Shown in pieces: positions 3-20,000 of a stretch of 20,000 bases of DNA. The translations under genes were made by a program, and so were the position numbers. Origin of the DNA: an uncultured virus (IMG/VR IMGVR_UViG_3300045738_001030) (taxonomy: Duplodnaviria > Heunggongvirae > Uroviricota > Caudoviricetes). The DNA lies in the IMG/VR virus record IMGVR_UViG_3300045738_001030; one strand, given 5' to 3'. The notes under the pieces are model-generated. The model saw nothing but the letters and a program-made list of their open reading frames with translations, was not told the DNA's origin and did no database searches. How positions within the stretch are numbered: the stretch's first letter is position 1; every line of letters begins with the position of its first letter.

Positions 3-725
3 TATGACAAATTTTTCAAAACCCTCTACTTGAACGATTACGTCGAATTTCAAATGCGGGCTACGCAGGAAAATCCTTTGGCTGCTGTTGGTATTTTATC
101 TCCGGTTGTCTCGGCTACGGGTGCGCAGTGGGTTACTGAACCAAAAAGCCCCCAAAGAGGTTACACGTGCATTGGTGGTCAGTACCCGAAGACACCTAAA
201 CCACAGGGGCAATATCTGGCTTTAGATGCTCCCGGCTGGTTTCAGCAGGTTCTAGAGAGCAGTAAGGGAGCTAGTGAAATAGCTAAGGGAGCTAATGAGA
301 TATCTAATCCCAATCAGAAGCAGAACAACCGCCCCACAAGTTACGAGGCATACAAAGCTCCGCTTACCGAGGCGATGAATAACATTGCGCATGTCTATTA
401 TGCGGCCAATGCTTTGCGAGGTCGTGTCGGTTCTTTCAGCAGCAAGTTACGTTTTGATATACCTCCCGGCGCTATGGTTACCTTAAAAAAGAGCCCCAAG
501 GCGGCGGGAGGTGCCACTAAAGACTTACCCTCTGACTTTCACGTGCAAATTACGCGGGTGTCCTATAACATTAATTCAGATACCCCTGTAGCGAGAACAG
601 AGTTTCAATGTGCAACTATTCGCACCCCAAGGGAACTTAAGGACAAAGATTATACGTTGAGTTCGCATCCTTTTGTTGATGGGACATGGAATGGTGATGA
701 ATTTGTAAAAGGATGGGGATTCTAA
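3..725 (+). CDS. 5'-truncated putative baseplate hub/tail protein (gp27/gpD-like C-terminus)
   Basis: Frame is open from position 3 (YDKFFKTLYLNDYV...), so TTG at 30 is probably not the true start. The C-terminal GRVGSFSSKLRFDIPPGAMVTL...VQITRVSYNI...TEF resembles the terminal beta-barrel of hub proteins, and the gene lies upstream of wedge genes. Confidence 0.5.
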   Translation, partial: YDKFFKTLYLNDYVEFQMRATQENPLAAVGILSPVVSATGAQWVTEPKSPQRGYTCIGGQYPKTPKPQGQYLALDAPGWFQQVLESSKGASEIAKGANEISNPNQKQNNRPTSYEAYKAPLTEAMNNIAHVYYAANALRGRVGSFSSKLRFDIPPGAMVTLKKSPKAAGGATKDLPSDFHVQITRVSYNINSDTPVARTEFQCATIRTPRELKDKDYTLSSHPFVDGTWNGDEFVKGWGF

Positions 726-1447
726 TGGATTACTTAGAGCCGGAATACCGGGAAGCTTATGAGGCGTGGGAGCAAGATCAAACTCCCACCGGAAATGCGG
801 CTATATTGGGGGCCATTGATCCAGTGGTACGAAAAGGCACTTCAATGTATGGCGGTGTAAGTCCTTTGACGCGCAGTCGTGGGCGGAAGTTGGCGCTAGA
901 GGGTTTGCGTACTTATGATCGAAGCCGATCTCGTCTTCAAAGTCACCTTATAAATCAGCTAAAGGGGCTTCAGCGTATTTCTAAGCAGCAACATGAGGTA
1001 GTACATGCCCCCGAAAGAGTCTTATTAGATCGTTTCAAGCTACAGAGATACGAGCAAGAATTAATGGACACATTAGGACGTGACGGGACAGACGCTGAGT
1101 TGGCAGACCAGTCTGGATTTTCGTTGAAACGTATAAAGCATATTCGAGGCTGGCAACCCGGAATGACAAGTAGCCAATTAGAGGACATTAGTCCTAATTT
1201 GGCGGGTGGTCAGTTTGTAGGGGGCGTTAGCAGTCAGGCAGCTTGGTTGGAAGTAGTTTATGACAGTTTGGCCCCCATGGATCAGAAGATCATGGAATTT
1301 TCGATGGGACTTCACGGACGAAAAGAACTATCCAATCAGGAAATTGCCAAAAAGTTAAAGCGTACTCCCGGTGCGATAAGTCAACGCAAGAAAAAGATAC
1401 AAGAGATTATCAGACAAGAAGAAGACCTTTCTCCCTTTATAGGATAA
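725..1447 (+). CDS. Sigma70-family sigma factor-like protein (group 3, FliA/SigB/SigF-like architecture), 240 aa
   Basis: Region 2-like ALEGLRTYDRSRS...QQHEVVHAP; region 3-like LMDTLGRDGTDAELADQSGFSLKRI; region 4-like LAPMDQKIMEFSMGLHGRKELSNQEIAKKLKRTPGAISQ. ATG at 725 overlaps the upstream stop (TAATG); the track's start at 713 is an alternative. Confidence 0.85.
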   Translation: MDYLEPEYREAYEAWEQDQTPTGNAAILGAIDPVVRKGTSMYGGVSPLTRSRGRKLALEGLRTYDRSRSRLQSHLINQLKGLQRISKQQHEVVHAPERVLLDRFKLQRYEQELMDTLGRDGTDAELADQSGFSLKRIKHIRGWQPGMTSSQLEDISPNLAGGQFVGGVSSQAAWLEVVYDSLAPMDQKIMEFSMGLHGRKELSNQEIAKKLKRTPGAISQRKKKIQEIIRQEEDLSPFIG

Positions 1448-2395: not shown

Positions 2396-4048
2396 ATGGT
2401 TTATGAAATTACAAATCTTAATGACCTAGACGCTACAGACGTTACCGCTCTGCTTACTAAAATCACGGAAGAACTACAGGAAAAAAATCCCACTTTAGAT
2501 TTAAAGCGAGGAGTGCTCCACGATAGTGTGGTCTATTATCACGCTGTGCTAGAAACTGCTATTCGAGAAAATTTAGATCGTTACTTGTCGGCACGTAGTT
2601 TGAAGCAAATTGAAGTAGACCCCACAATCGCCGATACGACTACGGTTGACGACATATTGAGTAACTGGGGAGTTTCGAGACGTGACGGAACGCAAGCACA
2701 GGGCGAAGTGACCATTATTGTCAGTACTTCTTCCAGCGTTTCTTTTGCGTCAGACGCCGTGTTTGAGGCGAATGGACTCTCTTTTACCTCCGATCTTGCT
2801 TATTCGTCTACGTCTAATTCGGCGGCAGTAGCTACACCTAATGATCGTCTTATGACGCAGCTTAGCGATGGTAATTGGTCATTTACTATTTTTGTGACAG
2901 CAGTTGAAACTGGGGCCGATGGGAAACTAACTGCTAACACCTCGATTATTCCTGAAACTCCTATTTCGAACTACGTTTCCAGTTATGTAACTGCTGACTT
3001 TGCAGGGGGGACGGAGACTGAAACAAATAGTGAGTTGCTTAACGTGTTGCAAGATGGGCTTGCTGCAAAAGCGCTTTCTAACCGCGTTAATATGCGTTCG
3101 TTCCTTCGTTCTTTATCGCAATTTCCGGCTGTCACTAATCAATCAATAGTGGGTTATGGTGACGCAGAGATGTTGCGAGACAAGCATTCTCTTTTTCCTG
3201 TAAGTTACGGGGGCCGGGTTGACTGGTATATCCGGGGACAAGAGGGGCTTCAAATAGTCACGTTAACTAAATCAGCGACATTGATCAGCGTGAACACAGA
3301 GGGAGAAGGGACGTGGCAGTTCACGTTAGTAAAAGTAGATGCTCCCGGGTTTTATGAAGTTTCTCGTATCTCTCTTCCCTCGTCAGATCCCGAGGAAACA
3401 GGAACTTTTAGTGTTACTAGCGATGTTCGGGGGTTGGACTTGACGGGAAGTGGATTCATACCCGACATTAAGACGCAGGTGGAAGGTGCGTTTACGGCAT
3501 ATCAGACAGCGACGATTCAGTTTGTAGACACTGTCACAGATGCCTCTTCACTTTCGGCTGGGGACAAAAAAGATTACACAGTCAATGTGTCAAATACACC
3601 TTCTATTGGAGAACTCCAAGATTATGTGGGTGGTCGAGACGTTCGAAGTTACGGTGCCGACGCTTTAATAAAGGCACCAGTTCCTTGTTTTGTTCAAGTT
3701 TCATGCGTAATTAATAAAACTGGTGCGGACGCGGACCCAGATTTAGCGGGTATTAAGAATTCAATTATATCCTTAATTAACAATACTGGATTTATTGGTC
3801 GTTTGGACGGTTCTAGGATACTTGATGTAATCCATGGATACATTCAAAACGATGTTAGCATCACAGATCTAGATATTCTGGGTCGAATTTTAACGCCGGG
3901 CGGTACAACTACATGGTTGCATGATTCTTCTTCTATTGTTGTGGTAGATGACTCTTCTGGTATGGTAACAGCTAAAACGGTTCAATTTTTTGCCAGTGTT
4001 TCCGATATTTCTGTAGATGTGCAGACAACGATTCCAACGTTCACTTAG
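2396..4048 (+). CDS. Baseplate J-like wedge protein (P2 gpJ/Mu gp47/T4 gp6 family)
   Basis: Family motifs VDDILSNWGVSRRDGTQAQGEVTI, VTAVETGADG and FAGGTETETNSELL; GAGGT upstream at 2383-2387. Confidence 0.9.
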   Translation: MVYEITNLNDLDATDVTALLTKITEELQEKNPTLDLKRGVLHDSVVYYHAVLETAIRENLDRYLSARSLKQIEVDPTIADTTTVDDILSNWGVSRRDGTQAQGEVTIIVSTSSSVSFASDAVFEANGLSFTSDLAYSSTSNSAAVATPNDRLMTQLSDGNWSFTIFVTAVETGADGKLTANTSIIPETPISNYVSSYVTADFAGGTETETNSELLNVLQDGLAAKALSNRVNMRSFLRSLSQFPAVTNQSIVGYGDAEMLRDKHSLFPVSYGGRVDWYIRGQEGLQIVTLTKSATLISVNTEGEGTWQFTLVKVDAPGFYEVSRISLPSSDPEETGTFSVTSDVRGLDLTGSGFIPDIKTQVEGAFTAYQTATIQFVDTVTDASSLSAGDKKDYTVNVSNTPSIGELQDYVGGRDVRSYGADALIKAPVPCFVQVSCVINKTGADADPDLAGIKNSIISLINNTGFIGRLDGSRILDVIHGYIQNDVSITDLDILGRILTPGGTTTWLHDSSSIVVVDDSSGMVTAKTVQFFASVSDISVDVQTTIPTFT

Positions 4049-4070
4049 TATTAATTCAGGAACGGTAAAA

Positions 4071-4277
4071 ATGGACAATACACGATTCAAGCTTACAAAA
4101 ACCGATTTAACCAAAGTAGGTAAGGGGGTTCTAGTTGCTATAGCTGGGGCTGCTTTGACCTATTTAACTGAGTGGGCTGCTAACACGGATTTCGGGTCTT
4201 ATACGCCTGTTATTGTGGCTGGACTTTCAATTTTAGCCAACATAGTCCGAAAGTGGTCTACTCCTAGCTCAGAGTGA
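4071..4277 (+). CDS. Holin-like small membrane protein, 68 aa, two TM helices
   Basis: Likely ATG at 4071, which avoids overlap with baseplate J. Hydrophobic segments GVLVAIAGAALTYL and YTPVIVAGLSILANIV, basic N-terminus and RKW after TM2. Confidence 0.6.
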   Translation: MDNTRFKLTKTDLTKVGKGVLVAIAGAALTYLTEWAANTDFGSYTPVIVAGLSILANIVRKWSTPSSE

Positions 4278-4278
4278 G

Positions 4279-4286
4279 AGGAGGAG
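4279..4286 (+). promoter_or_regulatory. Shine-Dalgarno sequence (AGGAGGAG)
   Basis: Lies just upstream of ATG 4289 and supports that start over GTG 4274. Confidence 0.65.
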
Positions 4287-4288
4287 TG

Positions 4289-4747
4289 ATGAGACGAAAA
4301 GAACTATTTATCCTGCTGATCGGGATGCTGCTGCTGATCGGATGCAGGAAGTCATCGGACCCTGTGTATGCAACAAAGGCAGGCGCGGAGAACAATGAAT
4401 ATATACCATCAGCTGAACTGCAAACTCTTGTAAGTCCATTACGGGATTTGGGTATGAGTGCGAAAGATGCCGCTAAAATGGCTAAGTTTTTTGAAGATTT
4501 TGCCGATGTCCTTAGTCGGGATGATTCGATTCTAAAGACGACGGAGGATATTCGAGAAGGGTATATTCGCGCAGAAACGTTGATGTTGCAAAAAACAGAA
4601 CTGGTAGGGAAGTACCCGGGATTTGGTAAGGCTAAAGACGATATTCTAGCCGAGACTCTTGGACTTAATCGTGTTCTTTTGACCTCTGAAAAACGTTCTA
4701 AAGCTGTCGATGCGTTTAAGGCGATGGCTTGGGCATTGGGAGGTTAA
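4289..4747 (+). CDS. Predicted lipoprotein, 152 aa, helical
   Basis: Signal peptide II: MRRK, hydrophobic LFILLIGMLLL, lipobox LIG-C19. Confidence 0.8.
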   Translation: MRRKELFILLIGMLLLIGCRKSSDPVYATKAGAENNEYIPSAELQTLVSPLRDLGMSAKDAAKMAKFFEDFADVLSRDDSILKTTEDIREGYIRAETLMLQKTELVGKYPGFGKAKDDILAETLGLNRVLLTSEKRSKAVDAFKAMAWALGG

Positions 4748-4749
4748 CG

Positions 4750-5691
4750 ATGCCCGCAAATTTTCCAGACAATCCTACCCCCGCAGAATTGCGCAGAGCA
4801 TACGCGGGGGGATTTGAAGGTGCTAAATGCGATCCCGAGGGTCTTGCAAATCTCTTGGGAGACTTACTGCACCCGCTTTTTGGTGCTTCAGCTTATTCGC
4901 TAGAGGGCGACGGCAAAGGCAAAGTTTCCTTGCCGTTCAAGTCATTATTGAAGTTTGACTCGGGTTTTGGCCCTTCAGAGAGCCAAACCACCGGAGACTG
5001 CGTCAGTCATGCCACTAGGAACGCTGTAGACGTCACCAGAGCCGTTGAGATCGACATTAAAGGGGAAGAGGAGGGTTTCCTGCACCGTGGCGCTACAGAG
5101 GCCATATACGGCTCTAGGGGGCATGGTGGGCAAGGAATGGCATGTTCAGAGGCTGCCCGTTTTGTTAGTCAGGAGGGAGGAATTCTCCTTCGTAAAGACT
5201 ATGGATATGTCGACTTTTCTGTGTATGACAGTTCACTCGGTGCAAAGTGGGGACGCAGGGGAGTTCCTGACTCTATCGAGAAGGAAGGACGTCGACATCA
5301 AGTGAACACTGTTTCCTTGGTGGTATCTGTGGCAGAAGCCCGGGATGCCTTAGCAAATGGCTATGCATTGTCGGTGTGCAGCAGTGTGGGGTTCTCATCG
5401 CGACGAAATGACAATGGCTATGCGAATCGTAAGGGCTCTTGGAATCATGCGATGGCATGGGTTGGTTGTAACGACACTAAGAAAAACGGGGGTCCCGGCT
5501 TCTTAGTACAGAACAGTTGGGGAAGATGGAATGGGGGAGGTAAGAAGTTCGATCAACCTGACGGTAGCTTCTGGATTAACTACAATACGGCTGCGAGACT
5601 GATTGATGCACGCGGTTCGTGGGTTTTTTCAGATGTTGACGGTTTCCCGCCGCGAAAATTACCTGATTACGGAAAATCATTATGGGGGTAG
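4750..5691 (+). CDS. Papain-like (clan CA, C1-type) cysteine peptidase, 313 aa
   Basis: Catalytic motifs in the correct order: QTTGDCVSHA (Q79, C84), WNHAM (H233), FLVQNSWG (N255), then GSFWI. GGAGGT at 4739-4744 supports ATG 4750. No signal peptide evident. Confidence 0.88.
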   Translation: MPANFPDNPTPAELRRAYAGGFEGAKCDPEGLANLLGDLLHPLFGASAYSLEGDGKGKVSLPFKSLLKFDSGFGPSESQTTGDCVSHATRNAVDVTRAVEIDIKGEEEGFLHRGATEAIYGSRGHGGQGMACSEAARFVSQEGGILLRKDYGYVDFSVYDSSLGAKWGRRGVPDSIEKEGRRHQVNTVSLVVSVAEARDALANGYALSVCSSVGFSSRRNDNGYANRKGSWNHAMAWVGCNDTKKNGGPGFLVQNSWGRWNGGGKKFDQPDGSFWINYNTAARLIDARGSWVFSDVDGFPPRKLPDYGKSLWG

Positions 5692-5695
5692 TACA

Positions 5696-5983
5696 ATGGA
5701 TGTACGAACCGGAAGACTTGTTTTAAGTGTTGTTTTCTTGATCGGTGGGTGCGGTCAGTTTCTTCCTTCCGCATATGTTGATACGACGGATTGGACTCCC
5801 ACCATCTCTGTTTCTCTAGCTATGGCGACGTTGAACGTCCCGGCTCCTGACGATACTACGCCAGCACCAGATCCGGACCCGGCTAAATGTCCGTGCAAAG
5901 GTACTGGCATCATTACGCATGGAGACGGTCATACAACGCCATGTCCATACCACGGCGAAGACAACAAACCAGATGAAGGATAA
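5696..5983 (+). CDS. Small Pro-rich predicted lipoprotein with C-terminal Cys/His motif, 95 aa
   Basis: ATG 5696 follows the peptidase stop. MDVRTGRLVLSVVFLIGG-C19 is lipobox-like; linker PAPDDTTPAPDPDPAK; tail CPCKGTGIITHGDGHTTPCPYH. Confidence 0.7.
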   Translation: MDVRTGRLVLSVVFLIGGCGQFLPSAYVDTTDWTPTISVSLAMATLNVPAPDDTTPAPDPDPAKCPCKGTGIITHGDGHTTPCPYHGEDNKPDEG

Positions 5984-10018: not shown

Positions 10019-10978
10019 ATGCCTCTCTCACAATGGAATCTAGAATGGCTAGATCACAATAGCCAAAGAAATTACCCTCTCGCAGAGGATGCGACGGGTC
10101 TTGACAGCACAGACAGCTTCAAGATTCCAGAAGACTTCATAGTCGAAATGGATTTACCTATCCATGCTGCAATGGATATGGACCCCTCTAGGTTCTTTAT
10201 TCGTCAAATTGTGGCTGCTGGCACCGGTTACTCCATCATCGTGTCTTATTCTGGTGATAGCGGTGTTCAGGATGTAGCGTCTGCCAATATTCCGAAAACC
10301 TCGCACACAAGGTGGACGGTATATGCCTTAGGCGGTATCGAGCCTTTTGACGATACTGTCGGCAAAGTCACCATCAACAAGCTGTCTTCTATTGACGCAC
10401 AGCCTCCGGGTCTGTGGGAATTCACTTACGCGGGTTCTAGAATTGAACCAGACACCGTTCGCCCGATCATACGGGGTGTGCAGTCTATTAAAGTTCAATC
10501 TGGTACTGTTAGCAGCGAACGATTTTACGGTGATATTGAGTTAGTGGCTGGTAATAACATTCAACTGACTCCGGTTGCTGTTGAAAGCGGCGTTTCAAAA
10601 ATCATTATTAGTGCTTTAAGTGGTGAGGGGCTGGATGAGCCATGTGTTTGTGAGGGTGACGCAGCTAAGGTCCCCTGCATTAAAACTATCAATGGCGTTT
10701 TTCCAACTCCTCAAGGTGAATTTAATCTTATTGGTGATGATTGTATCGAGTTAGAAGACCTCGCTGAAGCGCATGCGATCAGGATGACTGATGTATGTTG
10801 TGCTCCGTGTTGTGGTTGCGTTGAACTTGAAGCAATTACACAAGACCTCGAACGTTTTAATCAGCAAAAGATTAATTTAGAACTTTTCGTCAACACGTTA
10901 CAGTCATCTGTAACTGAAATGAATATGGTTGTCCTTGGAGCCCGACTGGGTGACAAAGGCTGCATGACTTGTGAGTAA
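10019..10978 (+). CDS. Cys-rich putative virion protein, paralog 1 of 5
   Basis: WLDHNSQRNYPL N-terminal motif, YGDIELVAGNN, CIKTINGV, CCAPCCGC followed by a coiled-coil-like tail; 11 Cys counted. Confidence 0.8.
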   Translation: MPLSQWNLEWLDHNSQRNYPLAEDATGLDSTDSFKIPEDFIVEMDLPIHAAMDMDPSRFFIRQIVAAGTGYSIIVSYSGDSGVQDVASANIPKTSHTRWTVYALGGIEPFDDTVGKVTINKLSSIDAQPPGLWEFTYAGSRIEPDTVRPIIRGVQSIKVQSGTVSSERFYGDIELVAGNNIQLTPVAVESGVSKIIISALSGEGLDEPCVCEGDAAKVPCIKTINGVFPTPQGEFNLIGDDCIELEDLAEAHAIRMTDVCCAPCCGCVELEAITQDLERFNQQKINLELFVNTLQSSVTEMNMVVLGARLGDKGCMTCE

Positions 10979-10984
10979 TATAAG

Positions 10985-12694
10985 ATGGCAGACCCCCGAG
11001 GTCGTCAGCCCATCGGCGTCAATCAGCCGCCGGGTGGCGGCACTAATTATCCATTTAATCGCCCTTCCTCGGATATTCAATATCTACTAGGCGATTTTTA
11101 TCTGTCCTTTACTGATATTACGTGTCAGTACTCTTACCCTTTTCACGTGGAGTGGATGTACGGGTTTGGTACTAACTCTGTAACGCCTCCTTCGGGCTAC
11201 CCCGCTCCTGTTCATACTCGTGACATCATTATCAAGGATGCTAGTGGTGTGACAGTTTTTGACTCTACTCGGGATGGTACTCTGTATTCTGCCAACGTGT
11301 GGGGTACTCGTTTGCTTGTTCATGAGTGGGTTGATTCCGATAAGTACACTGTCTGTCGCTGCACAGAGCACACTGAATGGACTCAAGGGGACATCGATGC
11401 CGGTCTCGACAAAACTTATGACGATTACATCGTTCCTACGGATGGAATACTAGATGCGCGGACGTATAACAGGTTGCCTCAGCGTGTTAATACAATAACT
11501 GTCGGTTTGGTGACTTTAGACGGTCAAATAAGCTTTGAAGAGGGATACAACATTGGGCTGACAGGAACTCTAAGAACTAGTGATATTGCTAAACTGACGT
11601 TGGCGGATATTGGAGTTGAAACGCAATCTGCTGAGGTAATTCCGGGCGAGCGTAGAACTACATACCTAACGTTAGACGCCACGCCGGGGCTTGGTTTAGG
11701 AACTTTTCCAAGTTGCGAGAACCTTGCGGATAATTACCAGACTGATTTGCGTAAATTGAACGGGGTTATAGGTGATGCGTCTGGAAACGTAAATTTGGAT
11801 ACTGAAGATGAGTCTTGTCTGCGTATCCAAAGGCCTACGGTTCTCACGAGTCTTGATCCTCGCGAATTTATATACTACTCACCCCTAGCGCCGGTCGATC
11901 AGCTGGTTCAGTCGAAATCAGCACTTGAGCTTCGAAATGACTGTGGTCCTTGTTGTGATTGCGAATATTTTGCAAGAACTTACCAAGGCTTAAAACGGCA
12001 ATGGTTCTTTTATCAAGATATAGCCACGGATGCGGAAGAAACTCGGGATACTCATAATTCTAATATTCTCCGCTGGAATGCGCAAAAAGAATGCCGTGAA
12101 GCTAGGCCAATTAGCGTATCTACATTGGCAGAGCCTGACTGCAAGATCATACATTCATCAATTTTTGGTAACACTAGCAAATGCTGCCTGCTAAAAGTTC
12201 ATTTTCGGTTTACTTTTTACTACTACCGCGCGGGTGGAATTATTAGTCCGCCTGAGCTAGCGTATTTTGATTGTAAACGCACAGAGATTTTGGGATCTCC
12301 TCAGGGAAATGGGCCGGAGGCTTATACATTAATCGGTGATTACCCGGTGTACGAAACCATTATTGACTACATGGAGCCTCAATCTAACGCCCGTACAACA
12401 TTCAGATTCTGTTTTCCCAGCTGCCTAGAAAATGACCGAGTACAGATACGGACACACATATATTGGGAGGGTGTGCGTACTGAGGCCGAGTATCCAGAAT
12501 GGCCGCTAAAAAACTTAACATGCTCTTATCCGACTGTAGACATCGACGCTGCGCTATACTCCCTTTGGTCTACTTCTTCGTTGGGCGTTCCCTCGGAGGA
12601 TGTGCGGTACGATAAAGACACAAAACTTATAACAACTAACCCCATAAACAAATATTGTGTTCAATGCGATTGTGATAGCGTAAGCATAGGTTAA
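10985..12694 (+). CDS. Cys-rich putative virion protein, paralog 2 of 5
   Basis: NYPF, DGQISFEEGYN, LRKLNGV, DCGPCCDC plus helix, extra C-terminal beta domain; 20 Cys counted. Confidence 0.8.
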   Translation: MADPRGRQPIGVNQPPGGGTNYPFNRPSSDIQYLLGDFYLSFTDITCQYSYPFHVEWMYGFGTNSVTPPSGYPAPVHTRDIIIKDASGVTVFDSTRDGTLYSANVWGTRLLVHEWVDSDKYTVCRCTEHTEWTQGDIDAGLDKTYDDYIVPTDGILDARTYNRLPQRVNTITVGLVTLDGQISFEEGYNIGLTGTLRTSDIAKLTLADIGVETQSAEVIPGERRTTYLTLDATPGLGLGTFPSCENLADNYQTDLRKLNGVIGDASGNVNLDTEDESCLRIQRPTVLTSLDPREFIYYSPLAPVDQLVQSKSALELRNDCGPCCDCEYFARTYQGLKRQWFFYQDIATDAEETRDTHNSNILRWNAQKECREARPISVSTLAEPDCKIIHSSIFGNTSKCCLLKVHFRFTFYYYRAGGIISPPELAYFDCKRTEILGSPQGNGPEAYTLIGDYPVYETIIDYMEPQSNARTTFRFCFPSCLENDRVQIRTHIYWEGVRTEAEYPEWPLKNLTCSYPTVDIDAALYSLWSTSSLGVPSEDVRYDKDTKLITTNPINKYCVQCDCDSVSIG

Positions 12695-12735
12695 TACGCT
12701 CGCACTTAATTGCCAGTTATCCCGAAATGTAACTC

Positions 12736-14349
12736 ATGGCCATCCGTAACCAAGCTTGGTACAACTTAAATTCGACAAGGGATTACCCTCTTGCCGATAC
12801 GGCAAGTGCTATTTCTGACGCAGAAGATAGGTTGCCGCAGACTATCATTACGGATTTGCGTATTCGATGGCCTGATCTGCTGGGCGCATATACGTTTTTC
12901 GGTTCAGTATCCGCTACAAAGGGTGCAGTTACTGCCACTATTTTAGCATCTCCTGACCTCTCTAATGCTGGTTCTTCGTACACCCCCGTGGCGTCTATAT
13001 CAGTCCCGTTGGCTTCTCTAGTAATTGGAAAGCAGTATCCCCTTGAGGCAATGTATCCTGCTGTGTTTGGCTATATTGCGTTCGGAGAGGGAGCGCTGGT
13101 GCCGTGGCGCGGTGCATTTTCTAGTCCGGAGCAATCCTTATTGACTTCCCGCGCAGCACGTGCTCATGCCGCATTACCGGTATCAAGTTTGGGCAGACTA
13201 CATGATGCGGTTGCTTTGACAGGTGTGGTAAATATTAATGCCACTAAGCCTTTGGAGATTGTCAAAGGAGAACGAGATATCGGAGGTATTATTCGGGATA
13301 CCATTATCCTTCGACTCAGGGATGAATCGAATACCGGTATCGAGAGTGATAATACACCGCAAAGAGTATCTGCGTTCGAGGAATATGTGGGTGAATGCGG
13401 GAAACGTCCGGAGTCTAATAATTGCGGTAATCCTATTCCTTTTGAGACGATAAATGCTGTTCCCCCGGATTGCGATGGGATTGTATGTATCAATTTTAAG
13501 GGGTGTGCCACCGTAGGTAAAAATACAGATGATTGCGGTATCGTAGTGGATTGCGATATCGGGTTGTCTGAGACGTGTGATCCTCCTCAAATACCTACAC
13601 TGGAGGGGGTTTTACCTTCAGAGAAGACCCCTTCGATACCTCCGGTTCCTCCTGACCCGGAACCTGACCCACCAGATGCGGAAGACAGTGTTAGTGATAC
13701 CGTAGTCACGTCGATTACTTTGCCATATTGTGATGCTTTTGAAGACGAAATCGCGGATAACTTTTCAGTTATAAGTGGCAGTTGGGTGTTTGTACCGGGC
13801 AATAGCCCTGACGAATTATGCGAGGGAGCTTATAGCTATTCCACTGAATCCGGGGTTAGTGGTGGTACGCAAAATATCTCATTATTCACCGCTGATGCTC
13901 AAACTCTTTATCGTAAATATCAAACTGACATGAAGATAATGGGCGGTGATACGGGCATGAAACGTAATGGAGGCATTATTGTAGACTACAAAGCCACTGG
14001 AGATGGAACTAGCACTTTCTTTCTGCTGGAATTGAGTCACGACGATGCAGAATTTCGTCTCGTGTATTACAACGGCCTTGCTTATGTGCCTCTAGCTACT
14101 CAAGTATTGCCGGAATTGGCATTAGAGTATTGGTATAACCTAGAGCTTCGCGTACATCCGAGTGCGTCTTTAACTGGCATTACATTTCATTGTATTTTGA
14201 CAGGAATTACTGATACAAGTGTCAGCGTAACGATGGATTACACGTCTTCTTGGTCGAATTACCGCGAAGATTCTGAGTTAGCAGGATTCCATACCGATAG
14301 AGCATACGCACGCTTCTCATACTGGAGGGTGTCAGAATACGTACCTTAA
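12736..14349 (+). CDS. Cys-rich putative virion protein, paralog 3 of 5, with Pro linker and C-terminal ConA-like beta-sandwich
   Basis: WYNLNSTRDYPL, FETINAVPPDCDG; Pro-rich linker at about 13582-13680; C-terminal DAF...GSW...GGIIV...WYNLELRV...AGF...ARF pattern like lectin/glucanase (DUF1080-like) folds. Confidence 0.75.
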   Translation: MAIRNQAWYNLNSTRDYPLADTASAISDAEDRLPQTIITDLRIRWPDLLGAYTFFGSVSATKGAVTATILASPDLSNAGSSYTPVASISVPLASLVIGKQYPLEAMYPAVFGYIAFGEGALVPWRGAFSSPEQSLLTSRAARAHAALPVSSLGRLHDAVALTGVVNINATKPLEIVKGERDIGGIIRDTIILRLRDESNTGIESDNTPQRVSAFEEYVGECGKRPESNNCGNPIPFETINAVPPDCDGIVCINFKGCATVGKNTDDCGIVVDCDIGLSETCDPPQIPTLEGVLPSEKTPSIPPVPPDPEPDPPDAEDSVSDTVVTSITLPYCDAFEDEIADNFSVISGSWVFVPGNSPDELCEGAYSYSTESGVSGGTQNISLFTADAQTLYRKYQTDMKIMGGDTGMKRNGGIIVDYKATGDGTSTFFLLELSHDDAEFRLVYYNGLAYVPLATQVLPELALEYWYNLELRVHPSASLTGITFHCILTGITDTSVSVTMDYTSSWSNYREDSELAGFHTDRAYARFSYWRVSEYVP

Positions 14350-14365
14350 ATAGTGGAATTTAAAC

Positions 14366-15196
14366 ATGCCTAGTCAAATCAGACATCCCGAGTGGCGGTC
14401 ATCTCTGGAGGATACTAAGTATCCTTTTGAGCCCGGTGCCAAATTAGTAAATGGATCAGGGGACATAATCCCCCCTGATTCTTTTCTAGACGCACATCTT
14501 TACCCGATAGGGGGAGGGGCTCCTATATATTTGTCCTCCATAGTAATTACCGTAGACAACATTATTTTTCATATCGGCGACAATTCGTCTAATGATATTG
14601 CTTCGGGGTCTATAGCTGTAACGGGGTCAAGTGACACAGTCAGATTAACGGACGCATATGGTCGGCCAGCAGGTATTCTTGTTTCAGAAGCTGCTAGATT
14701 GGGGTTATTTCGTTCATTCGGCATAGGTGAACATGTTTTCACAAAAGAGCAAACTCCATTCGTGGCTACTGTTTGCATGCCGACTCCGCAAATAGGTGTC
14801 AGAGGTATAGTTATTCCCGACGGCACTGTATTCACAGGCCCTGTGTGGATTGTTGGAGAAGATGGCGTCGTCGTCAGCAAAGAAACGGTTACCTCTCCCG
14901 CGACGTGCGATAGAGGAGAGGAGACTTACGAGGTTATTCGAGTAGATGTGGTGGGCGATCCTCTCTTCAGACGACGTCTATGTATTCCCGCTGATCTTTT
15001 CACAACTCCTAATTTTATGCGGGGGATTAGAGTCGTTAATGGATCTGAAGAGTGGGTATGCACCCCAGATGAACACGGTTATTTTTACATTCAAGGTAAC
15101 GATTCGCTTGCGGGAGATCCCGCATTACGTGTCAGAACAACTACCCGGGGCGAATTAAAATTCGAGGTGGTTGGAACTTCAAACTTCGATAGCTAG
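14366..15196 (+). CDS. Putative virion protein, paralog 4 of 5
   Basis: EWRSSLEDTKYPF...IPPDSFLDAHL N-terminus, GVRGI...TGPVWIVGEDG, PDEHGYFYIQG. Confidence 0.75.
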   Translation: MPSQIRHPEWRSSLEDTKYPFEPGAKLVNGSGDIIPPDSFLDAHLYPIGGGAPIYLSSIVITVDNIIFHIGDNSSNDIASGSIAVTGSSDTVRLTDAYGRPAGILVSEAARLGLFRSFGIGEHVFTKEQTPFVATVCMPTPQIGVRGIVIPDGTVFTGPVWIVGEDGVVVSKETVTSPATCDRGEETYEVIRVDVVGDPLFRRRLCIPADLFTTPNFMRGIRVVNGSEEWVCTPDEHGYFYIQGNDSLAGDPALRVRTTTRGELKFEVVGTSNFDS

Positions 15197-15204
15197 GTGA
15201 ACAA

Positions 15205-16209
15205 ATGCCACGACCAAATTGGTACAACGATAACATTAATCGTGCTTTTCCGTTTGAATACAAGACTGTAGGGATTAGTGTTCCTGAGTCTGGTACAGTG
15301 ACAATGGGTGAGCTACCAGACGATTTTATCGCCGATTGCGGGTTTACTATTGGGCCTTCGGCAGATTTTAACAATCTGGAAAAACCCCCAGATTCTGTTT
15401 ATCTAAACAAAATTTCGCGCGTAGGCAATACTGTGCTTTTCGAATTCATAACTACCGAAGGGAGTATGGCTGACTTTCCCCTCATTTTCACTAGAGACAT
15501 TTCAGATGAGGAGTACACCTTAGAGTACTTGGATAGCGATGCTCCTGAGAAACGTAACGAGAGCATTTCGGATTCAGTGGGTGGTTTGTGCCGCGAGCCG
15601 TTTTGGAGTGGGTACTTGGTAACTGGAGACATGTCTTCAGTTGCGTCAAGGTTGTCAGATGGTGGATCTATCTTTCGATCATCCGGTGAAGCCATCGTCG
15701 AGCCAGCTTTGGTAGAGAACCTATCCAATTCCATAGTTAATTCGTTTGAATTAGCCAATTCAGACAGAACACGGTCTACGTCTCCCGATGATTGCGATCC
15801 GATTGAATGGCCTTTTGTCACGGGACTTACTTATGTGAAAGAACGTTGTATACAGGGAGATGTCAAAATAAAGGCAGGTTACAATGTTCGAGTTTCAGTT
15901 AATTTAGGCTCTAATACGATTACACTTTCACCCGCTGTGGGATCTGGAGCGGGGTCTCCTTGCGGGGAAGTAAGTTTGTTTGACGGGGAGGTGCCTCCTG
16001 ACGATGCTACGAACAACTTGTTTGAAGGAGGTTTACTTTGTAATGAGGTCATTCGTGCTATCAACGGTCTTGGGGGTCCCAATTTAAAGGTAGTAGGGGG
16101 ACAAGGGGTCTCGGTAAGTCCCGATCTAGAAAATAATTGTATCAATATTGATGTTAACTTCCTTGGTTTGGACCTGTGTGCGTATTCATACACGTCTGAA
16201 TCGCTCTAG
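15205..16209 (+). CDS. Cys-containing putative virion protein, paralog 5 of 5
   Basis: WYNDNINRAFPF...LPDDFIADC, QGDVKIKAGYN, GSGAGSPC, IRAINGL. Confidence 0.78.
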   Translation: MPRPNWYNDNINRAFPFEYKTVGISVPESGTVTMGELPDDFIADCGFTIGPSADFNNLEKPPDSVYLNKISRVGNTVLFEFITTEGSMADFPLIFTRDISDEEYTLEYLDSDAPEKRNESISDSVGGLCREPFWSGYLVTGDMSSVASRLSDGGSIFRSSGEAIVEPALVENLSNSIVNSFELANSDRTRSTSPDDCDPIEWPFVTGLTYVKERCIQGDVKIKAGYNVRVSVNLGSNTITLSPAVGSGAGSPCGEVSLFDGEVPPDDATNNLFEGGLLCNEVIRAINGLGGPNLKVVGGQGVSVSPDLENNCINIDVNFLGLDLCAYSYTSESL

Positions 16210-16223
16210 TAAGAATTAAACTC

Positions 16224-19200
16224 GTGGCCGCAACTACTCAATGCCCGCAAGGTCCTCAAGACCCGGTATTTAATATCCAAGCGTGCCAAGTTCCCTGCAT
16301 TTTTCCAGTGCCGGAAGGGAATTGGGGTCAGTTTTGGGTACCGCAAGGACCGCAGGACATTGATGACACTCTGAATGTGGATTTTATATTTCCGGAGCAG
16401 GAGATACCGTGTCCGACGCTAACATCGGCGAGTCCTTTATTAACAATTACTGAGGGAGCTTGTTGCGACTTCGAATTTGACATCAATCTCGATATACCAT
16501 GTCCTCTTCTGACGGCTGCACAGTCAATAACGTCAATTGTTGATGTCGGGTTAGAATTTGCAGAACTGATTATTGAAACACCGGGCTCTGCTGACTCTGA
16601 GTCGGCAGAGGATTGTGCGTTCGAATTTCAATTGGATATTGCTTTCCCGTGTCCGATTTTGATTTCTCAGCAACAGGCATGGACGACTGTTGTTCCAGTC
16701 GGCGAAGAGAGTGCTTCTCTTACCATTCTCAATGCGCAACAAGACTGTAATTTCGAATTTGAGTTGGATATTGCTTTCCCGTGTCCGGATCTTTCGGTGG
16801 GAGGGCAGGCACAAATATCTATTGTGCCTGTGGGACAGGAGTGGGCAGAGATCGTCATTGCCACTGTGCAACAGGTCGATTGCACTTTTGAATTCGATCT
16901 TATTGTTGACTTCCCATGTCCCGAAATAACTGGTGCTCAGGCGCAAACCTCTATTGTACTGATAGGCGATGAGGCCGCTGAGGTTATCGTTACGAAGTCT
17001 CAGGCTCAAGATTGCACTTTTGACATAGATATTAACATTGATTTCCCTTGCCCCCAGATAACCAGTGCTCAAGCACAAGTAGCTATTGTGCCGGTGGGCG
17101 AAGAGACGTTTGAACTAACCGTCACAAAAGTGCAGGAATGCAGTTTTGAGATGGATATTGTTATTGATTTCCCCTGCCCTCAAATAACTGGTGCTCAGGC
17201 TCAGACATTTATCGTTCCGGTGGGCAAAGAAACGTTTGAGATAATCGTCACGAAAGTGCAGGACTGCAATTTCGAGATGGATATCGTCGTTGATTTCCCG
17301 TGTCCGCAAATCACGGTTGGGGTTCAGGCTCAATACAGCGTTGTTCTTATTGGTCAGGAAGATGCTGAATTTACTGTCGTATTGACGTCTCCCCAGTCCT
17401 GCACGTTTGATTTTGAATTTGATTTAGATGTCAAGTTTCCCTGTCCTGTAATAACTGGTTCTCAGGCGATAACATCTGTTGTTTTAGTGGGGTCAGAATA
17501 CGCTGAGATCATCGTTACCAAAAGTGGCGATTGCACTTTTGATTTGGATCTTGACATTGATTTTCCATGCCCGCTGATCACGGTGGATAATTCTCCCGGT
17601 TACTGGAGTGTTGTCCCGGTTGGATCTGAAAAAGCAGAAATTTATGTCACTAAAAGCGGCGACTGCAATTTCGAATTTAGCGTAGAAGTTGATTTTCCCT
17701 GTCCGTCTATGAGCGTAGATAACTCTCCCGGTTACACCAGTGTTGTGCCGATTGGGTCTGAAAAAGCAGAAATTTATGTCGCCAAAAGCGGCGACTGCGA
17801 TTTTGAATTTCATATAGAAGTTGATTTTCCATGCCCTCAAATAATTACCAGCGCGACTTATAGCGGTGGCGGCACAGGAACGGGAGGAGATGCTGGGTTA
17901 ATCGTTACTAAAAGTGGCGATTGCACGTTTGAGATAGCTTTAGACATAGAGTTCCCATGTCCTACAGTTCTTACTCCTAGTACGGTCACAGCTCAAACAA
18001 AGCTTGTTCCGTATGGGGATGAGAAAGCGTTTTTATATCTCACCAAGACAGATGCTTGTACTTACGCTTTTGCATTACAGATTGAATTTCCGCAATGTCC
18101 CATTACCCTGCAAACTGTTCAGTCAGGTGTATCGTGGGGGACCGACGATACGCCAGAAGCTGCTGAAAACTACTTAACTATTACCAAATTCGATGAGTGC
18201 AAGTATGACTTTAAACTCACCGTACAGTTTCCATGCCCGGAACTAAAAGTCGATCCGGCGGTTGATGATGGTCATTACGTTGCTGTTGGTATTCCCGGCG
18301 TTTTCGATATCACAATCACGAAGAATCCATTCGAGCCGGAAAAATGTATATGGTATTTCATCATAGATGTCGATTGGCCATGTGTCGATCTTCAGCCGCC
18401 TATTGTTGATTCTACTGATTATTGGTGGGACGACGCGGCTGCACCAGTCGCCCGTAACCTCGGCGAGTATGGGGATGCTTACTTATACATTACGAAAAAC
18501 GTAGTTGCAGATACTTGCAAGTATGACTTTAGTTTAGATATTTTTTGGCCATGCCCTCTGCTTTACCCTCACATCGGCAATCCGGATGACTTCGTTGACT
18601 CTGAGGACTTTTGGGCCGCCTCCGTCGGTACTGTCGGAGATGCTCGTTTATACATCACGAAAAATGAGACTGATAACCCGGTACGTTGCAGATACGATTT
18701 CACTTTAGATATTTGGTGGCCATGCCCTTGGCTTGACCCCTACATCACCGGCCACAATCCGGACAACTACGTTGACTCTGCTGACCTTTGGGTGGCCGGA
18801 CTTAATCATGGAACGCGCGGTGCAATCGGAGATGCTCATTTAAGCATCACGAAAAATGAGGATGATGACCCGGTACGTTGCAGATACGATTTCACTTTAG
18901 ATGTTTGGTGGCCATGCCCTTGGCTGACCCCCTCCTCCGTCGATGGTCACCCGCACGTTACCTCTAATGACTTTTGGGCCCCCGTCGGTGGATTCGGTGA
19001 TACTCAGTTACACATCACGAAAAATGAGACTGATGACCCGGTACGTTGCAGATACGATTTCGTTTTCGATATGTTTTGGCCATGTCCCAAAATAGAGACG
19101 ACATATACTGAATACGCGGGGTGGTTGAGCCCCAATGGTTGGAACACAGCGGGTTATACGGGTGACCTGAAGATTGCAGAGTTTACGGCGGTCAATACCG

Positions 19201-20000
19201 GTGATTGCGTATGGAATCTTGACCTCGATCTGGAGATTGACTGGCCATGTCCATCACTCGAATACGATACAGCTAAACAGCATCTTCGTCTTGTTCGTGC
19301 TCCGGACTGGAATCCTCTTTATAACACGATTGTGATTCAACGGGCGACTTCTCCAGCTGGCCGGTGTATATGGGAATTTGGTCTGGAAGTGGAATTTCCA
19401 TGTCCGGCGTGGATCATGGGAGGGGTTGGAGCAAACGAAGCAACATACACTGCTCTAGTTACTCGTTCTCCCGGTCCGATGACTGAAACATTGACAGTTG
19501 AAGTGTATCATTACTCTGGTGATGGTGGAGCGCAGTGTGCCAAAAATTTAGTTTTAGGTCTCGATCTTGAGGCCGCCACTCCCGGGCCTCCCGGCCCCAG
19601 TGGAGGCCCCGGCCCCAGTGGAGGCCCCGGCCCCGGTGGCGCACCCGGCCCTGCCGGAATATCTTGGAAAGGTATTTGGGTTACTTCTACGGCATATGCC
19701 TTAAACGATGTAATCGTTTACATAGATGGCACAACTTACATCTGCATACAGGCTCACACCTCATCTGTCTCTATTACACCAACTGACGCTGCCTATTGGG
19801 ATATTCTTTCCGAGGCAGGCGATCCCGGCATAGACTGGCTGGGGTCTTGGGCCACTGCTATTGTATATGCCATAGGCGATTCGATAGCTTACGGCACAAG
19901 TCCGAAATCTTCCTTCATTTGCACAGCTGCCCATACTTCATCCGGTGCGATCTTACCCACTAATACATCTTATTGGGATATTCTTGCCGAACGGGGAGAT
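16224..20000 (+). CDS. Giant repetitive tail fibre/adhesin, 3'-truncated, at least 1259 aa (absent from ORF track)
   Basis: Manual translation from GTG 16224 (MAATTQCPQGPQDPVFNIQACQVPC...) gives no stop through 20000 (...YWDILAERGD). About 21 Cys repeats, a Gly-X-Y stretch and CBM-like modules all stay in this frame. Confidence 0.93.
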   Translation, partial: MAATTQCPQGPQDPVFNIQACQVPCIFPVPEGNWGQFWVPQGPQDIDDTLNVDFIFPEQEIPCPTLTSASPLLTITEGACCDFEFDINLDIPCPLLTAAQSITSIVDVGLEFAELIIETPGSADSESAEDCAFEFQLDIAFPCPILISQQQAWTTVVPVGEESASLTILNAQQDCNFEFELDIAFPCPDLSVGGQAQISIVPVGQEWAEIVIATVQQVDCTFEFDLIVDFPCPEITGAQAQTSIVLIGDEAAEVIVTKSQAQDCTFDIDINIDFPCPQITSAQAQVAIVPVGEETFELTVTKVQECSFEMDIVIDFPCPQITGAQAQTFIVPVGKETFEIIVTKVQDCNFEMDIVVDFPCPQITVGVQAQYSVVLIGQEDAEFTVVLTSPQSCTFDFEFDLDVKFPCPVITGSQAITSVVLVGSEYAEIIVTKSGDCTFDLDLDIDFPCPLITVDNSPGYWSVVPVGSEKAEIYVTKSGDCNFEFSVEVDFPCPSMSVDNSPGYTSVVPIGSEKAEIYVAKSGDCDFEFHIEVDFPCPQIITSATYSGGGTGTGGDAGLIVTKSGDCTFEIALDIEFPCPTVLTPSTVTAQTKLVPYGDEKAFLYLTKTDACTYAFALQIEFPQCPITLQTVQSGVSWGTDDTPEAAENYLTITKFDECKYDFKLTVQFPCPELKVDPAVDDGHYVAVGIPGVFDITITKNPFEPEKCIWYFIIDVDWPCVDLQPPIVDSTDYWWDDAAAPVARNLGEYGDAYLYITKNVVADTCKYDFSLDIFWPCPLLYPHIGNPDDFVDSEDFWAASVGTVGDARLYITKNETDNPVRCRYDFTLDIWWPCPWLDPYITGHNPDNYVDSADLWVAGLNHGTRGAIGDAHLSITKNEDDDPVRCRYDFTLDVWWPCPWLTPSSVDGHPHVTSNDFWAPVGGFGDTQLHITKNETDDPVRCRYDFVFDMFWPCPKIETTYTEYAGWLSPNGWNTAGYTGDLKIAEFTAVNTGDCVWNLDLDLEIDWPCPSLEYDTAKQHLRLVRAPDWNPLYNTIVIQRATSPAGRCIWEFGLEVEFPCPAWIMGGVGANEATYTALVTRSPGPMTETLTVEVYHYSGDGGAQCAKNLVLGLDLEAATPGPPGPSGGPGPSGGPGPGGAPGPAGISWKGIWVTSTAYALNDVIVYIDGTTYICIQAHTSSVSITPTDAAYWDILSEAGDPGIDWLGSWATAIVYAIGDSIAYGTSPKSSFICTAAHTSSGAILPTNTSYWDILAERGD
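16461..19406 (+). repeat. About 21 in-frame protein repeats (42-64 aa), core C-x-[FYW]-x-h-x-h-x-h-x-[FW]-P-C-P
   Basis: Examples: CAFEFQLDIAFPCP (16614), CNFEFELDIAFPCP (16746), CTFEFDLIVDFPCP (16881), CSFEMDIVIDFPCP (17139), CTFDLDLDIDFPCP (17532), CKYDFKLTVQFPCP (18198), CRYDFTLDIWWPCP (18687), CIWEFGLEVEFPCP (19365). Confidence 0.95.
18558..19088 (+). repeat. Three tandem DNA-level repeats (171, 192, 168 nt) with conserved core and variable loop
   Basis: ATCACGAAAAATGAG and ACCCGGTACGTTGCAGATACGATTTC are identical in all three units (18558-18728, 18729-18920, 18921-19088). Confidence 0.95.
19584..19658 (+). repeat. Collagen-like (Gly-X-Y)8 segment including an exact 18-nt tandem duplication
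   Basis: GPP GPS GGP GPS GGP GPG GAP GPA G; CCCGGCCCCAGTGGAGGC at 19590-19607 and 19608-19625. Confidence 0.92.
19659..20000 (+). repeat. Two tandem CBM5/12 (chitin-binding type 3)-like modules, probably continuing past the window
   Basis: WKGIWVTSTAYALNDVIVYIDGTTYICIQAHTS...P...YWDIL (from 19659) and WLGSWATAIVYAIGDSIAY...FICTAAHTS...P...YWDIL (from 19830) match the W-x5-Y-x-x-[GN]D-x-[VI]-x-Y...C-x-x-AHTS...W pattern. Confidence 0.8.

What the first reader, a model, noticed from the sequence alone, without database searches (positions are those of the whole stretch)
16224..20000. Hidden giant fibre ORF with an unfamiliar C-x11-C-P repeat shaft
Seen: the track misses this ORF, presumably because it has no stop in the window. 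It has about 21 repeats, each with three strand-like segments (e.g. AQAQTFIVPVG / KETFEIIVTKVQD / CNFEMDIVVDFPCP), strict hydrophobic-acidic alternation and two nearly invariant Cys, usually 11 residues apart (12-13 in three units). The downstream collagen stretch implies a trimer. Inference: a trimeric beta-shaft with six Cys per repeat forming a periodic disulfide ladder or metal sites, analogous to the His-coordinated iron sites of T4 gp37. I do not recognise this repeat family.
Basis: partly seen in the sequence, partly recalled or inferred. Interest (0 to 1): 0.8.

Follow-up and report, generated by a model that had tools for sequence, protein, structure and literature searches.

The report
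Disulfide-beaded tail fibre of giant phage
A large uncultured marine phage builds its tail fibre from 22 copies of an uncatalogued small protein module whose cysteines are gained and lost in pairs across relatives, so the fibre is probably stapled along its length by disulfide bonds rather than by metal ions.

Summary
The ORF is real: 1259 aa, no stop, open at the window end, right after a myophage baseplate gene run. The 21 C-x11/13-C-P motifs are exactly as described, but they are not the unit. The unit is a ~45-aa three-strand module, C2-P-β1-β2-C1-β3-P, present 22 times, with its two cysteines 29-51 residues apart (17 in module 1). Single modules embedded in collagen in relatives fix this register.

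About 100 protein relatives and 30 contigs carry 1-21 copies. No Pfam, PHROG, NCBIfam or PDB-sequence family covers the repeat. Accessory cysteines appear in pairs: a turn Cys in module n goes with a loop Cys in module n+1 in 41 of 53 cases, against 1 of 502 without it. This supports disulfides and argues against gp37-like metal sites (one HxH motif only).

Trimer state is inferred from the collagen; intra- versus inter-chain bonding is unresolved and no geometry was measured. The nearest analogue, Milano gp31, is not homologous. Earlier scan notes report similar disulfide-laddered fibres on other DNA; I could not link them by sequence. Verdict: a new variant of a known kind.

The parts
16224..20000 (+). 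Tail-fibre ORF, at least 1259 aa, runs off the window
   Evidence: the same N-terminus starts the relatives; PHROG tail-fibre hits over the collagen/CBM part only
16224..16409 (+). Conserved Pro-rich N-terminal segment with Cys7, Cys21, Cys25; inferred baseplate anchor
   Evidence: invariant columns in A1 and A2; anchor role is inferred by analogy with Pam3 gp24 Cys28 and Milano gp31 Cys38
16410..19574 (+). Shaft of 22 modules C2-P-β1-β2-C1-β3-P (aa 63-1117); 44 paired Cys plus accessory Cys80 in module 1; 163 D/E against 43 K/R
   Evidence: parse; secondary structure of a low-confidence model; couplings
17013..17311 (+). Recent DNA-level duplication, period 126 nt (one module), 79% match
17557..17836 (+). 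Recent DNA-level duplication, period 132 nt (one module), 83% match
19584..19664 (+). Collagen-like stretch, 9 Gly-X-Y triplets
19665..19814 (+). CBM5/12-like repeat 1 (one Cys)
   Evidence: Pfam PF02839 above cut-off; chitinase A1 binding domain 1ed7 at E 0.021
19836..20000 (+). CBM5/12-like repeat 2 (one Cys), cut by the window end
   Evidence: sequence similarity to repeat 1
10019..16209 (+). Five upstream unannotated genes richer in Cys (1.4-3.5%) than the inner baseplate genes (0.4-0.7%); inferred outer baseplate and possible disulfide partners
   Evidence: the gene just upstream is recognisable by its N-terminus in L001-L008, 8 of 9 viral loci (L009 has no upstream DNA); no Pfam, PHROG or NCBIfam match at E<=0.01
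2396..4048 (+). Baseplate J / wedge gene, marks a contractile tail
   Evidence: Pfam PF04865 E 1.4e-11, phrog_6 E 2.6e-14

Best explanation
This is the long tail fibre of a large contractile-tailed phage. A Cys/Pro-rich N-terminus anchors it to the baseplate (inferred). The shaft is a string of 22 beads. Each bead is made of three chains, each giving a three-stranded antiparallel meander whose hydrophobic face packs on the axis while the acidic face points outward (meander supported; trimer inferred). The Cys at the start of strand 1 (C2) and the Cys at the strand 2-3 turn (C1), about 30 residues later, sit together at the base of a bead and form a disulfide: 66 per trimer. Weak couplings hint that strand 1 pairs in parallel with strand 3 of a neighbouring chain, which would make the bond inter-chain (about 55:45). 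Relatives add optional bead-to-bead disulfides. A short collagen segment leads to carbohydrate-binding-like repeats that probably grip host surface glycans. Module number (1-22) and collagen length vary between phages and so tune reach. The bonds most likely form after lysis in oxic water or through host oxidases (inferred).
For: Shown. (1) Context: baseplate J gene and the same gene position in 8 of 9 viral loci; a related complete 204,794-bp record encodes terminase, RNA polymerase β/β' and a weak sheath match. (2) Register: 7 of 7 collagen- or Gly-rich-to-module starts begin with C2 and have no Cys upstream; L028 and L031 carry single whole modules inside collagen; DNA repeat periods equal one module. 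(3) Topology: 7 of the top 30 couplings fall on the β2-β3 hairpin diagonal and 4 on β1-β2, in 794 units; the AlphaFold monomer shows three strands per module with C1 at the β2-β3 turn (pLDDT 60). (4) Pairing: a Cys in the β1-β2 turn of module n goes with an extra Cys in the β2-β3 loop of module n+1 in 41 of 53 adjacent pairs, against 1 of 502 without it. In discordant cases the counts are 24 of 27 against 0 of 24 (14 and 11 clusters at 50% identity). At 43 module-to-collagen junctions a trailing Cys is present in 13 of 13 where the last module has a turn Cys and 0 of 26 where it has no extra Cys. Both core Cys are lost together in 6 of 399 pairs. In P0046, all 11 pairs that lack C2 have a turn Cys instead. 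Known precedent: inter-chain disulfides in the bead domains of Milano gp31 (PMC10811340) and disulfide-tethered Pam3 fibres (PMC9942802).
Against: The counts are not independent events: the junction classes fall into only 3 and 3 clusters at 40% identity, and the 6 joint losses come from 4 proteins, 3 of them close relatives. Single losses exist: 5 pairs lack only C1 and 14 only C2 of 399. Four junction rows (L019, L020) carry extra Cys in strand 2 with no evident partner, and P0059 has lone extra Cys. The β1-β3 couplings (z 2.3-3.8) could be indirect. The collagen here is short (9 triplets), and only 30 of 101 proteins have five or more triplets. No intact thiol oxidase was found in 192 of 215 ORFs of the complete relative. 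The C-terminus and the host are unknown.
Confidence: 0.74

Rival explanations
1. The cysteines are metal ligands: three or six thiolates per bead bind Zn, Cu or Fe on the threefold axis, like the His-iron ladder of the T4 gp37 needle.
For: Both Cys are about 98% conserved (777 of 790 units keep both, a count biased by the profile) and cluster at one end of the module. Assembly in a reducing cytoplasm favours thiolates (general knowledge). No intact oxidase was found in the relative.
Against: No CxxC or CxC in the shaft, one HxH, 11 His in 1055 aa. Accessory Cys arrive in pairs across modules. Joint losses go mostly to Phe/Tyr, not His/Asp. In P0046 a Cys moved to the other end of the strand stands in for C2, which a fixed axial site would not easily allow.
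Confidence: 0.08
2. The fibre is as described, but the cysteines are mostly free or only transiently or sporadically bonded (folding aids or buried small hydrophobes), so there is no continuous covalent ladder.
For: Pam3 fibre-baseplate bonds were called sporadic, 3 of 6 found by MS (PMC9942802 passages). The P22 tailspike uses cysteines in folding without native disulfides (PMC3357383, search listing only). Modules without either Cys exist in 4 proteins.
Against: Strict pairwise gain of accessory Cys in variable surface loops is hard to explain without selection on bonds in the mature protein.
Confidence: 0.1
3. The disulfides are real but the architecture differs: the strands run across the axis in a continuous β-prism or triple-β-helix shaft like T4 gp34, or the protein is a non-trimeric baseplate appendage.
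For: The accessory-Cys geometry also fits a continuous meander; a few weak β1-β3 couplings are antiparallel. Many relatives lack collagen. gp34 uses antiparallel sheets around a triangular core (PMC5537660 passages).
Against: Single modules work alone inside collagen. Linkers take Pro-rich inserts. No inter-module strand ladder appeared in 609 module pairs.
Confidence: 0.08

Closest known systems
Agrobacterium phage Milano short tail fibre gp31 (PMC10811340; PDB 8FQC)
   Same: Trimeric myophage fibre with tandem bead-like domains, two Cys per bead in inter-chain disulfides (C84-C102, C127-C144), N-terminal Cys bonded to the baseplate, glycan-binding-like tip.
   Different: Two beads of hairpin plus helix against 22 all-β three-strand modules; Cys 17 apart against about 30; no collagen; no sequence relationship (module profile: no hit in that ORF; hhalign probability 0.2%).
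Cyanophage Pam3 fibre gp24 (PMC9942802)
   Same: Trimeric fibre tethered to Cys-rich wedge proteins by disulfides; a model for the N-terminal Cys here.
   Different: In the passages read, its disulfides are at the anchor; it has no described disulfide repeat shaft. Sequence not compared.
Collagen-like phage tail fibres (PHROG 5073, 9851, 819; Pfam PF01391, PF02839)
   Same: Gly-X-Y segment and CBM5/12-like repeats at the distal end; position after the baseplate genes.
   Different: These profiles match only aa 1088 onward; none covers the 1050-residue Cys shaft.
T4 gp37 needle and gp34 β-prism/triple β-helix (PMC12609058, PMC5537660)
   Same: Trimeric β-rich fibre with periodic stabilising elements.
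   Different: gp37 uses seven HxH-iron sites; here there is one HxH and periodic Cys pairs. gp34 repeats are α/β or five-stranded prisms, with no disulfides mentioned in the passages read.
mReC phages, large tailed phages with multi-subunit RNA polymerase (PMC7481178)
   Same: The complete relative G001 (about 205 kb) encodes β and β' subunits, terminase and baseplate genes.
   Different: No tree was built; the window itself holds no polymerase gene, only a sigma-like ORF.

Membership tests
Phage tail fibre (collagen-like class) | Gene at the distal end of the baseplate cluster | tested here: met
   conserved in 8 of 9 viral loci
Phage tail fibre (collagen-like class) | Gly-X-Y segment | tested here: met
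   9 triplets; up to 436 in relatives
Phage tail fibre (collagen-like class) | Distal binding-type domain | tested here: met
   CBM_5_12 above cut-off; true C-terminus lies beyond the window
Phage tail fibre (collagen-like class) | Homotrimer present in the virion | not testable with these tools
   inferred from the collagen and from modules embedded in collagen
T4 gp37-type metal needle | Periodic HxH motifs | tested here: not met
   one HxH, 11 His in 1055 aa; definition from PMC12609058
T4 gp37-type metal needle | Bound metal | not testable with these tools
   needs ICP-MS or a structure
Milano gp31 bead domain | Sequence or profile homology | tested here: not met
Milano gp31 bead domain | Two Cys per bead in an inter-chain disulfide | tested here: inconclusive
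   two paired Cys per module; chain partner unresolved
Milano gp31 bead domain | Hairpin followed by a short helix | tested here: inconclusive
   model shows three strands and no helix but pLDDT is 60
T4 gp34 β-prism / triple β-helix | Fold match | tested here: inconclusive
   fold searches used a low-confidence monomer
Any catalogued repeat family (Pfam, PHROG, NCBIfam, PDB sequences) | Profile match over the repeat | tested here: not met
   none for P0001. In 51 relatives Pfam gave only composition-type hits with no significant stretch, e.g. Enas and Anti-TRAP on P0025. PHROG similar for 23 proteins. PDB profiles: none for A2, collagen-type or non-significant for A1
mReC phages | β and β' RNA polymerase subunits | tested here: met
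   in relative G001 only
mReC phages | Placement in the mReC polymerase clade | not tested
   no tree built

The most novel reading that the evidence does not exclude
An undescribed mobile trimeric β-barrel bead, closed by inter-chain disulfides, is used as a stackable length unit by a whole clade of ~200-kb aquatic phages. In this phage the three chains would be covalently laced by 66 disulfides along the shaft, far more periodic cross-links than in the phage fibres of the papers I read. They would be laid down without a phage-encoded oxidase, and lineages add optional bead-to-bead staples that tune stiffness.
Probability: 0.4. Interest if true: 0.72.

Novelty: new variant of a known kind. 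Interest (0 to 1): 0.56.

Why it matters
Disulfides in virions built in a reducing cytoplasm are known from a few structures (Milano, Pam3, siphovirus tubes), and how they form is open. PMC13576161 states that no thiol oxidoreductase machinery has been described in phages. This family offers about 790 natural copies of one 45-residue module with an explicit cysteine-pairing rule, so when and how the bonds form, and what they do for stiffness, can be tested on a small expressible fragment. It also adds a probable new fibre fold and a candidate modular, redox-lockable protein rod. It does not change how tail fibres are thought to work.

Tried and rejected
No genome is held for the window, so the ORF could not be extended; one contig of run X1 passes position 20000 by 51 bases but the letters were not shown. 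Single-protein searches found no relative in viral contigs or cultured phages; only the small alignment A2 worked. GTDB gave 1 locus of 48 candidates, a 21-aa match judged spurious, so there is no host link.

The trimer prediction gave no verdict (score 0.00, fold uncertain), which is no evidence either way. A two-module model had pLDDT 50 and was not used. Fold searches with the pLDDT-60 monomer gave nothing meaningful: PDB no E<=0.001, best Z 4.6, one viral hit at TM 0.10; this does not show the fold is new. ESM Atlas: no usable hit for P0001, collagen clusters under 0.9 for P0003.

The top mean-field coupling C2-C1 (z 9.5) was set aside, because other invariant columns also scored high and it vanished in the pseudo-likelihood run. 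A phage Erv1/Alr oxidase was considered: G001 has an Erv-like domain below cut-off that lacks CxxC; no convincing copy in the other records searched (0 of 4 with the family; one weak hit at E 0.03 in 5 with the domain, not examined). The split-domain 'plug' idea of note e1-5653845 was tested: no free-standing C1-β3 strand outside fibre genes in 1369 frames. A tiled self-alignment (A3) mis-registered and was dropped. P0096 and P0102 were dropped as unrelated. Five of 48 junction rows were dropped as Gly-rich module interiors. A joint skipping 19406-19577 in two runs may come from a relative and was not used.

Literature searches found no description of this repeat. The library lacks most subscription papers, including the PD491P1 structure cited in PMC13576161, and no supplements were read.
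Full report
Observation. The + strand from 16224 to 20000 reads as 1259 codons without a stop. It has 50 Cys and 21 C-x(11-13)-C-[PV] motifs, 18 of them with 11 residues, against a mean of 0.57 and a maximum of 4 in 2000 shuffles. After the repeats come nine Gly-X-Y triplets and two CBM5/12-like repeats. Pieces of the region occur with 0-1 differences in runs X2, X3 and X5 from three marine, seawater or vent studies besides the possible source X1.

Context. The window is one co-oriented tail region: a sigma-like gene, a small baseplate gene, baseplate J, then unannotated genes, the last five richer in Cys. An alignment of the N-terminus found 9 viral loci among 27 candidates and 21 metagenome loci among 84. 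The same upstream gene, judged by eye from N-termini, stands in L001-L008 (output partly cut). One relative, G001, is a complete 204,794-bp record with terminal repeats. Of its 215 predicted ORFs I scanned 192: terminase, PolA, RNA polymerase β and β', baseplate J, many glycosyltransferases, no thioredoxin or Dsb family. It resembles the mReC phages (PMC7481178, passages), untested by tree. The host is unknown.

Family. Protein searches gave 10 and 97 hits, 102 distinct proteins, of which 2 were dropped as unrelated. With 30 locus proteins, a module profile finds 790 units in 128 of 131 proteins, 1 to 21 per protein. Many continue into collagen of up to 436 triplets and end in varied tips (output partly cut). 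No library profile covers the repeat.

The unit is not C-x11-C. In the window protein the array opens with a Cys-Pro lacking an upstream partner (C63) and closes with a Cys and an acidic-type strand lacking a downstream one (C1105). Read from Cys-Pro to that strand, there are 22 whole modules. In relatives the x11 spacing stretches to 13-16 through Pro-rich inserts. Seven of seven modules that follow collagen or a Gly-rich run start at Cys-Pro with no Cys upstream (two of the seven come from near-identical contigs, two from one protein). L028 and L031 hold single complete modules inside collagen, which also implies three chains. The AlphaFold monomer (pLDDT 60) gives three strands per module, with C1 at the β2-β3 turn and C2 just before β1. 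Couplings in 794 units give the β2-β3 hairpin (7 of the top 30), the β1-β2 hairpin (4) and a weaker parallel β1-β3 set. These registers put C2 beside C1 at the base of the module. The β1-β3 set may mean that β1 pairs with β3 of the next chain in a nine-stranded barrel, making the bond inter-chain, or it may be indirect; I cannot decide.

Disulfide or metal. Accessory cysteines give a natural experiment. Among 555 adjacent module pairs, a Cys in the β1-β2 turn of module n is followed by an extra Cys in the β2-β3 loop of module n+1 in 41 of 53 cases, and that extra Cys appears in 1 of 502 other cases. Where only module n has the turn Cys the partner is present in 24 of 27; where only module n+1 has it, in 0 of 24. 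These come from 14 and 11 clusters at 50% identity, 7 and 6 at 40%. Two of the three exceptions have another extra Cys at the end of β3; P0059 is unexplained. At 43 collagen junctions (48 rows, 5 dropped), a trailing Cys occurs in 13 of 13 after a turn Cys and 0 of 26 with no extra Cys; 4 rows from two near-identical contigs have unpartnered Cys in β2. With strands found independently of Cys, 374 of 399 pairs keep both core Cys, 6 lose both (4 proteins, 3 related; mostly to Phe or Tyr), 14 lose only C2 (11 in P0046, each with a turn Cys instead) and 5 only C1. Pairwise bookkeeping of this kind is what disulfides predict. The gp37 needle uses seven HxH-iron sites (PMC12609058, passages); this shaft has one HxH, no CxxC and 11 His in 1055 residues.

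Mechanism. Shown: ORF, context, module register, pairing rule. Supported but weak: the three-strand meander. Inferred: trimer, 66 disulfides, anchoring by the N-terminal Cys to the Cys-rich upstream proteins, glycan binding at the tip, and oxidation after lysis or by host enzymes. The only oxidase-like sequence found, in G001, lacks CxxC. PMC13576161 (abstract and first part of the discussion) notes that phages have no described oxidoreductase and that bonds may form through host enzymes or air.

Comparison. Milano gp31 is the closest working analogue: a trimeric fibre with two beads, each with one inter-chain disulfide (PMC10811340, passages and sections 12-13). It is not homologous. Pam3 has disulfide-tethered fibres (PMC9942802, passages). 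T4 gp34 shows other trimeric β architectures (PMC5537660, passages). PMC12619734 (passages) was not relevant. Five literature searches found no account of this repeat; supplements were not read and could list such proteins. The scan's own notes describe disulfide-laddered 60-residue fibre repeats (e1-5340484, e1-5390989) and a peptide like β3 (e1-5653845) on other DNA. Sequence look-ups with P0001, P0025 and P0011 returned nothing, so their relation to this family is open; they are not support.

Verdict. A real, uncatalogued disulfide-paired β module forming the shaft of a phage tail fibre: a new variant of a known kind, interest 0.56.

Noticed in passing
window 4017-5983: Between baseplate J and the next structural gene sit a small membrane protein (weak DUF7144), a lipoprotein-like ORF, a papain-like C1 peptidase (E 0.0014) and a small Cys-containing ORF. 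G001 has an M10 peptidase with a peptidoglycan-binding domain in the same slot. Possibly a swappable lysis or envelope cassette.
   Followed up: no
window 713-1447: A sigma-70 region 3/4-like gene embedded in the tail cluster, conserved at the same place in G001.
   Followed up: partly
L037:8216-8512 (G001): Erv1/Alr-like domain inside a 541-aa ORF; keeps the flavin-site-like motifs (recalled from the family, not tested) but lacks CxxC.
   Followed up: partly
L001:11668-12165, L002:12101-13018: Very Cys-rich small genes (9.1% and 7.2%) directly after the fibre in two relatives; possible tip proteins.
   Followed up: no
L041:2673-4652 and equivalents in L001-L009, L022, L030, L031: A GT9-like glycosyltransferase follows the fibre gene closely in most relatives, and G001 has many more glycosyltransferases and two sulfotransferases; the fibre or virion may be glycosylated.
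   Followed up: no
P0004, P0006, P0007: A ~250-residue insert, by eye concanavalin/LamG-like (no Pfam hit for P0004), sits in the middle of the module array, and neighbouring modules have lost both Cys.
   Followed up: partly
L019, L022, P0002, P0005, P0013 C-termini: A shared ~130-residue C-terminal domain with no Pfam match closes many family members; candidate trimerisation or chaperone domain.
   Followed up: no
window 19811-19990: A variant contig in run X1 goes back 180 nt here, suggesting a relative with an additional CBM-like repeat.
   Followed up: no
window 18381-19082: Modules 16-19 have longer, Trp/Asp-rich β1 loops than the proximal modules; they might form secondary binding surfaces.
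   Followed up: no
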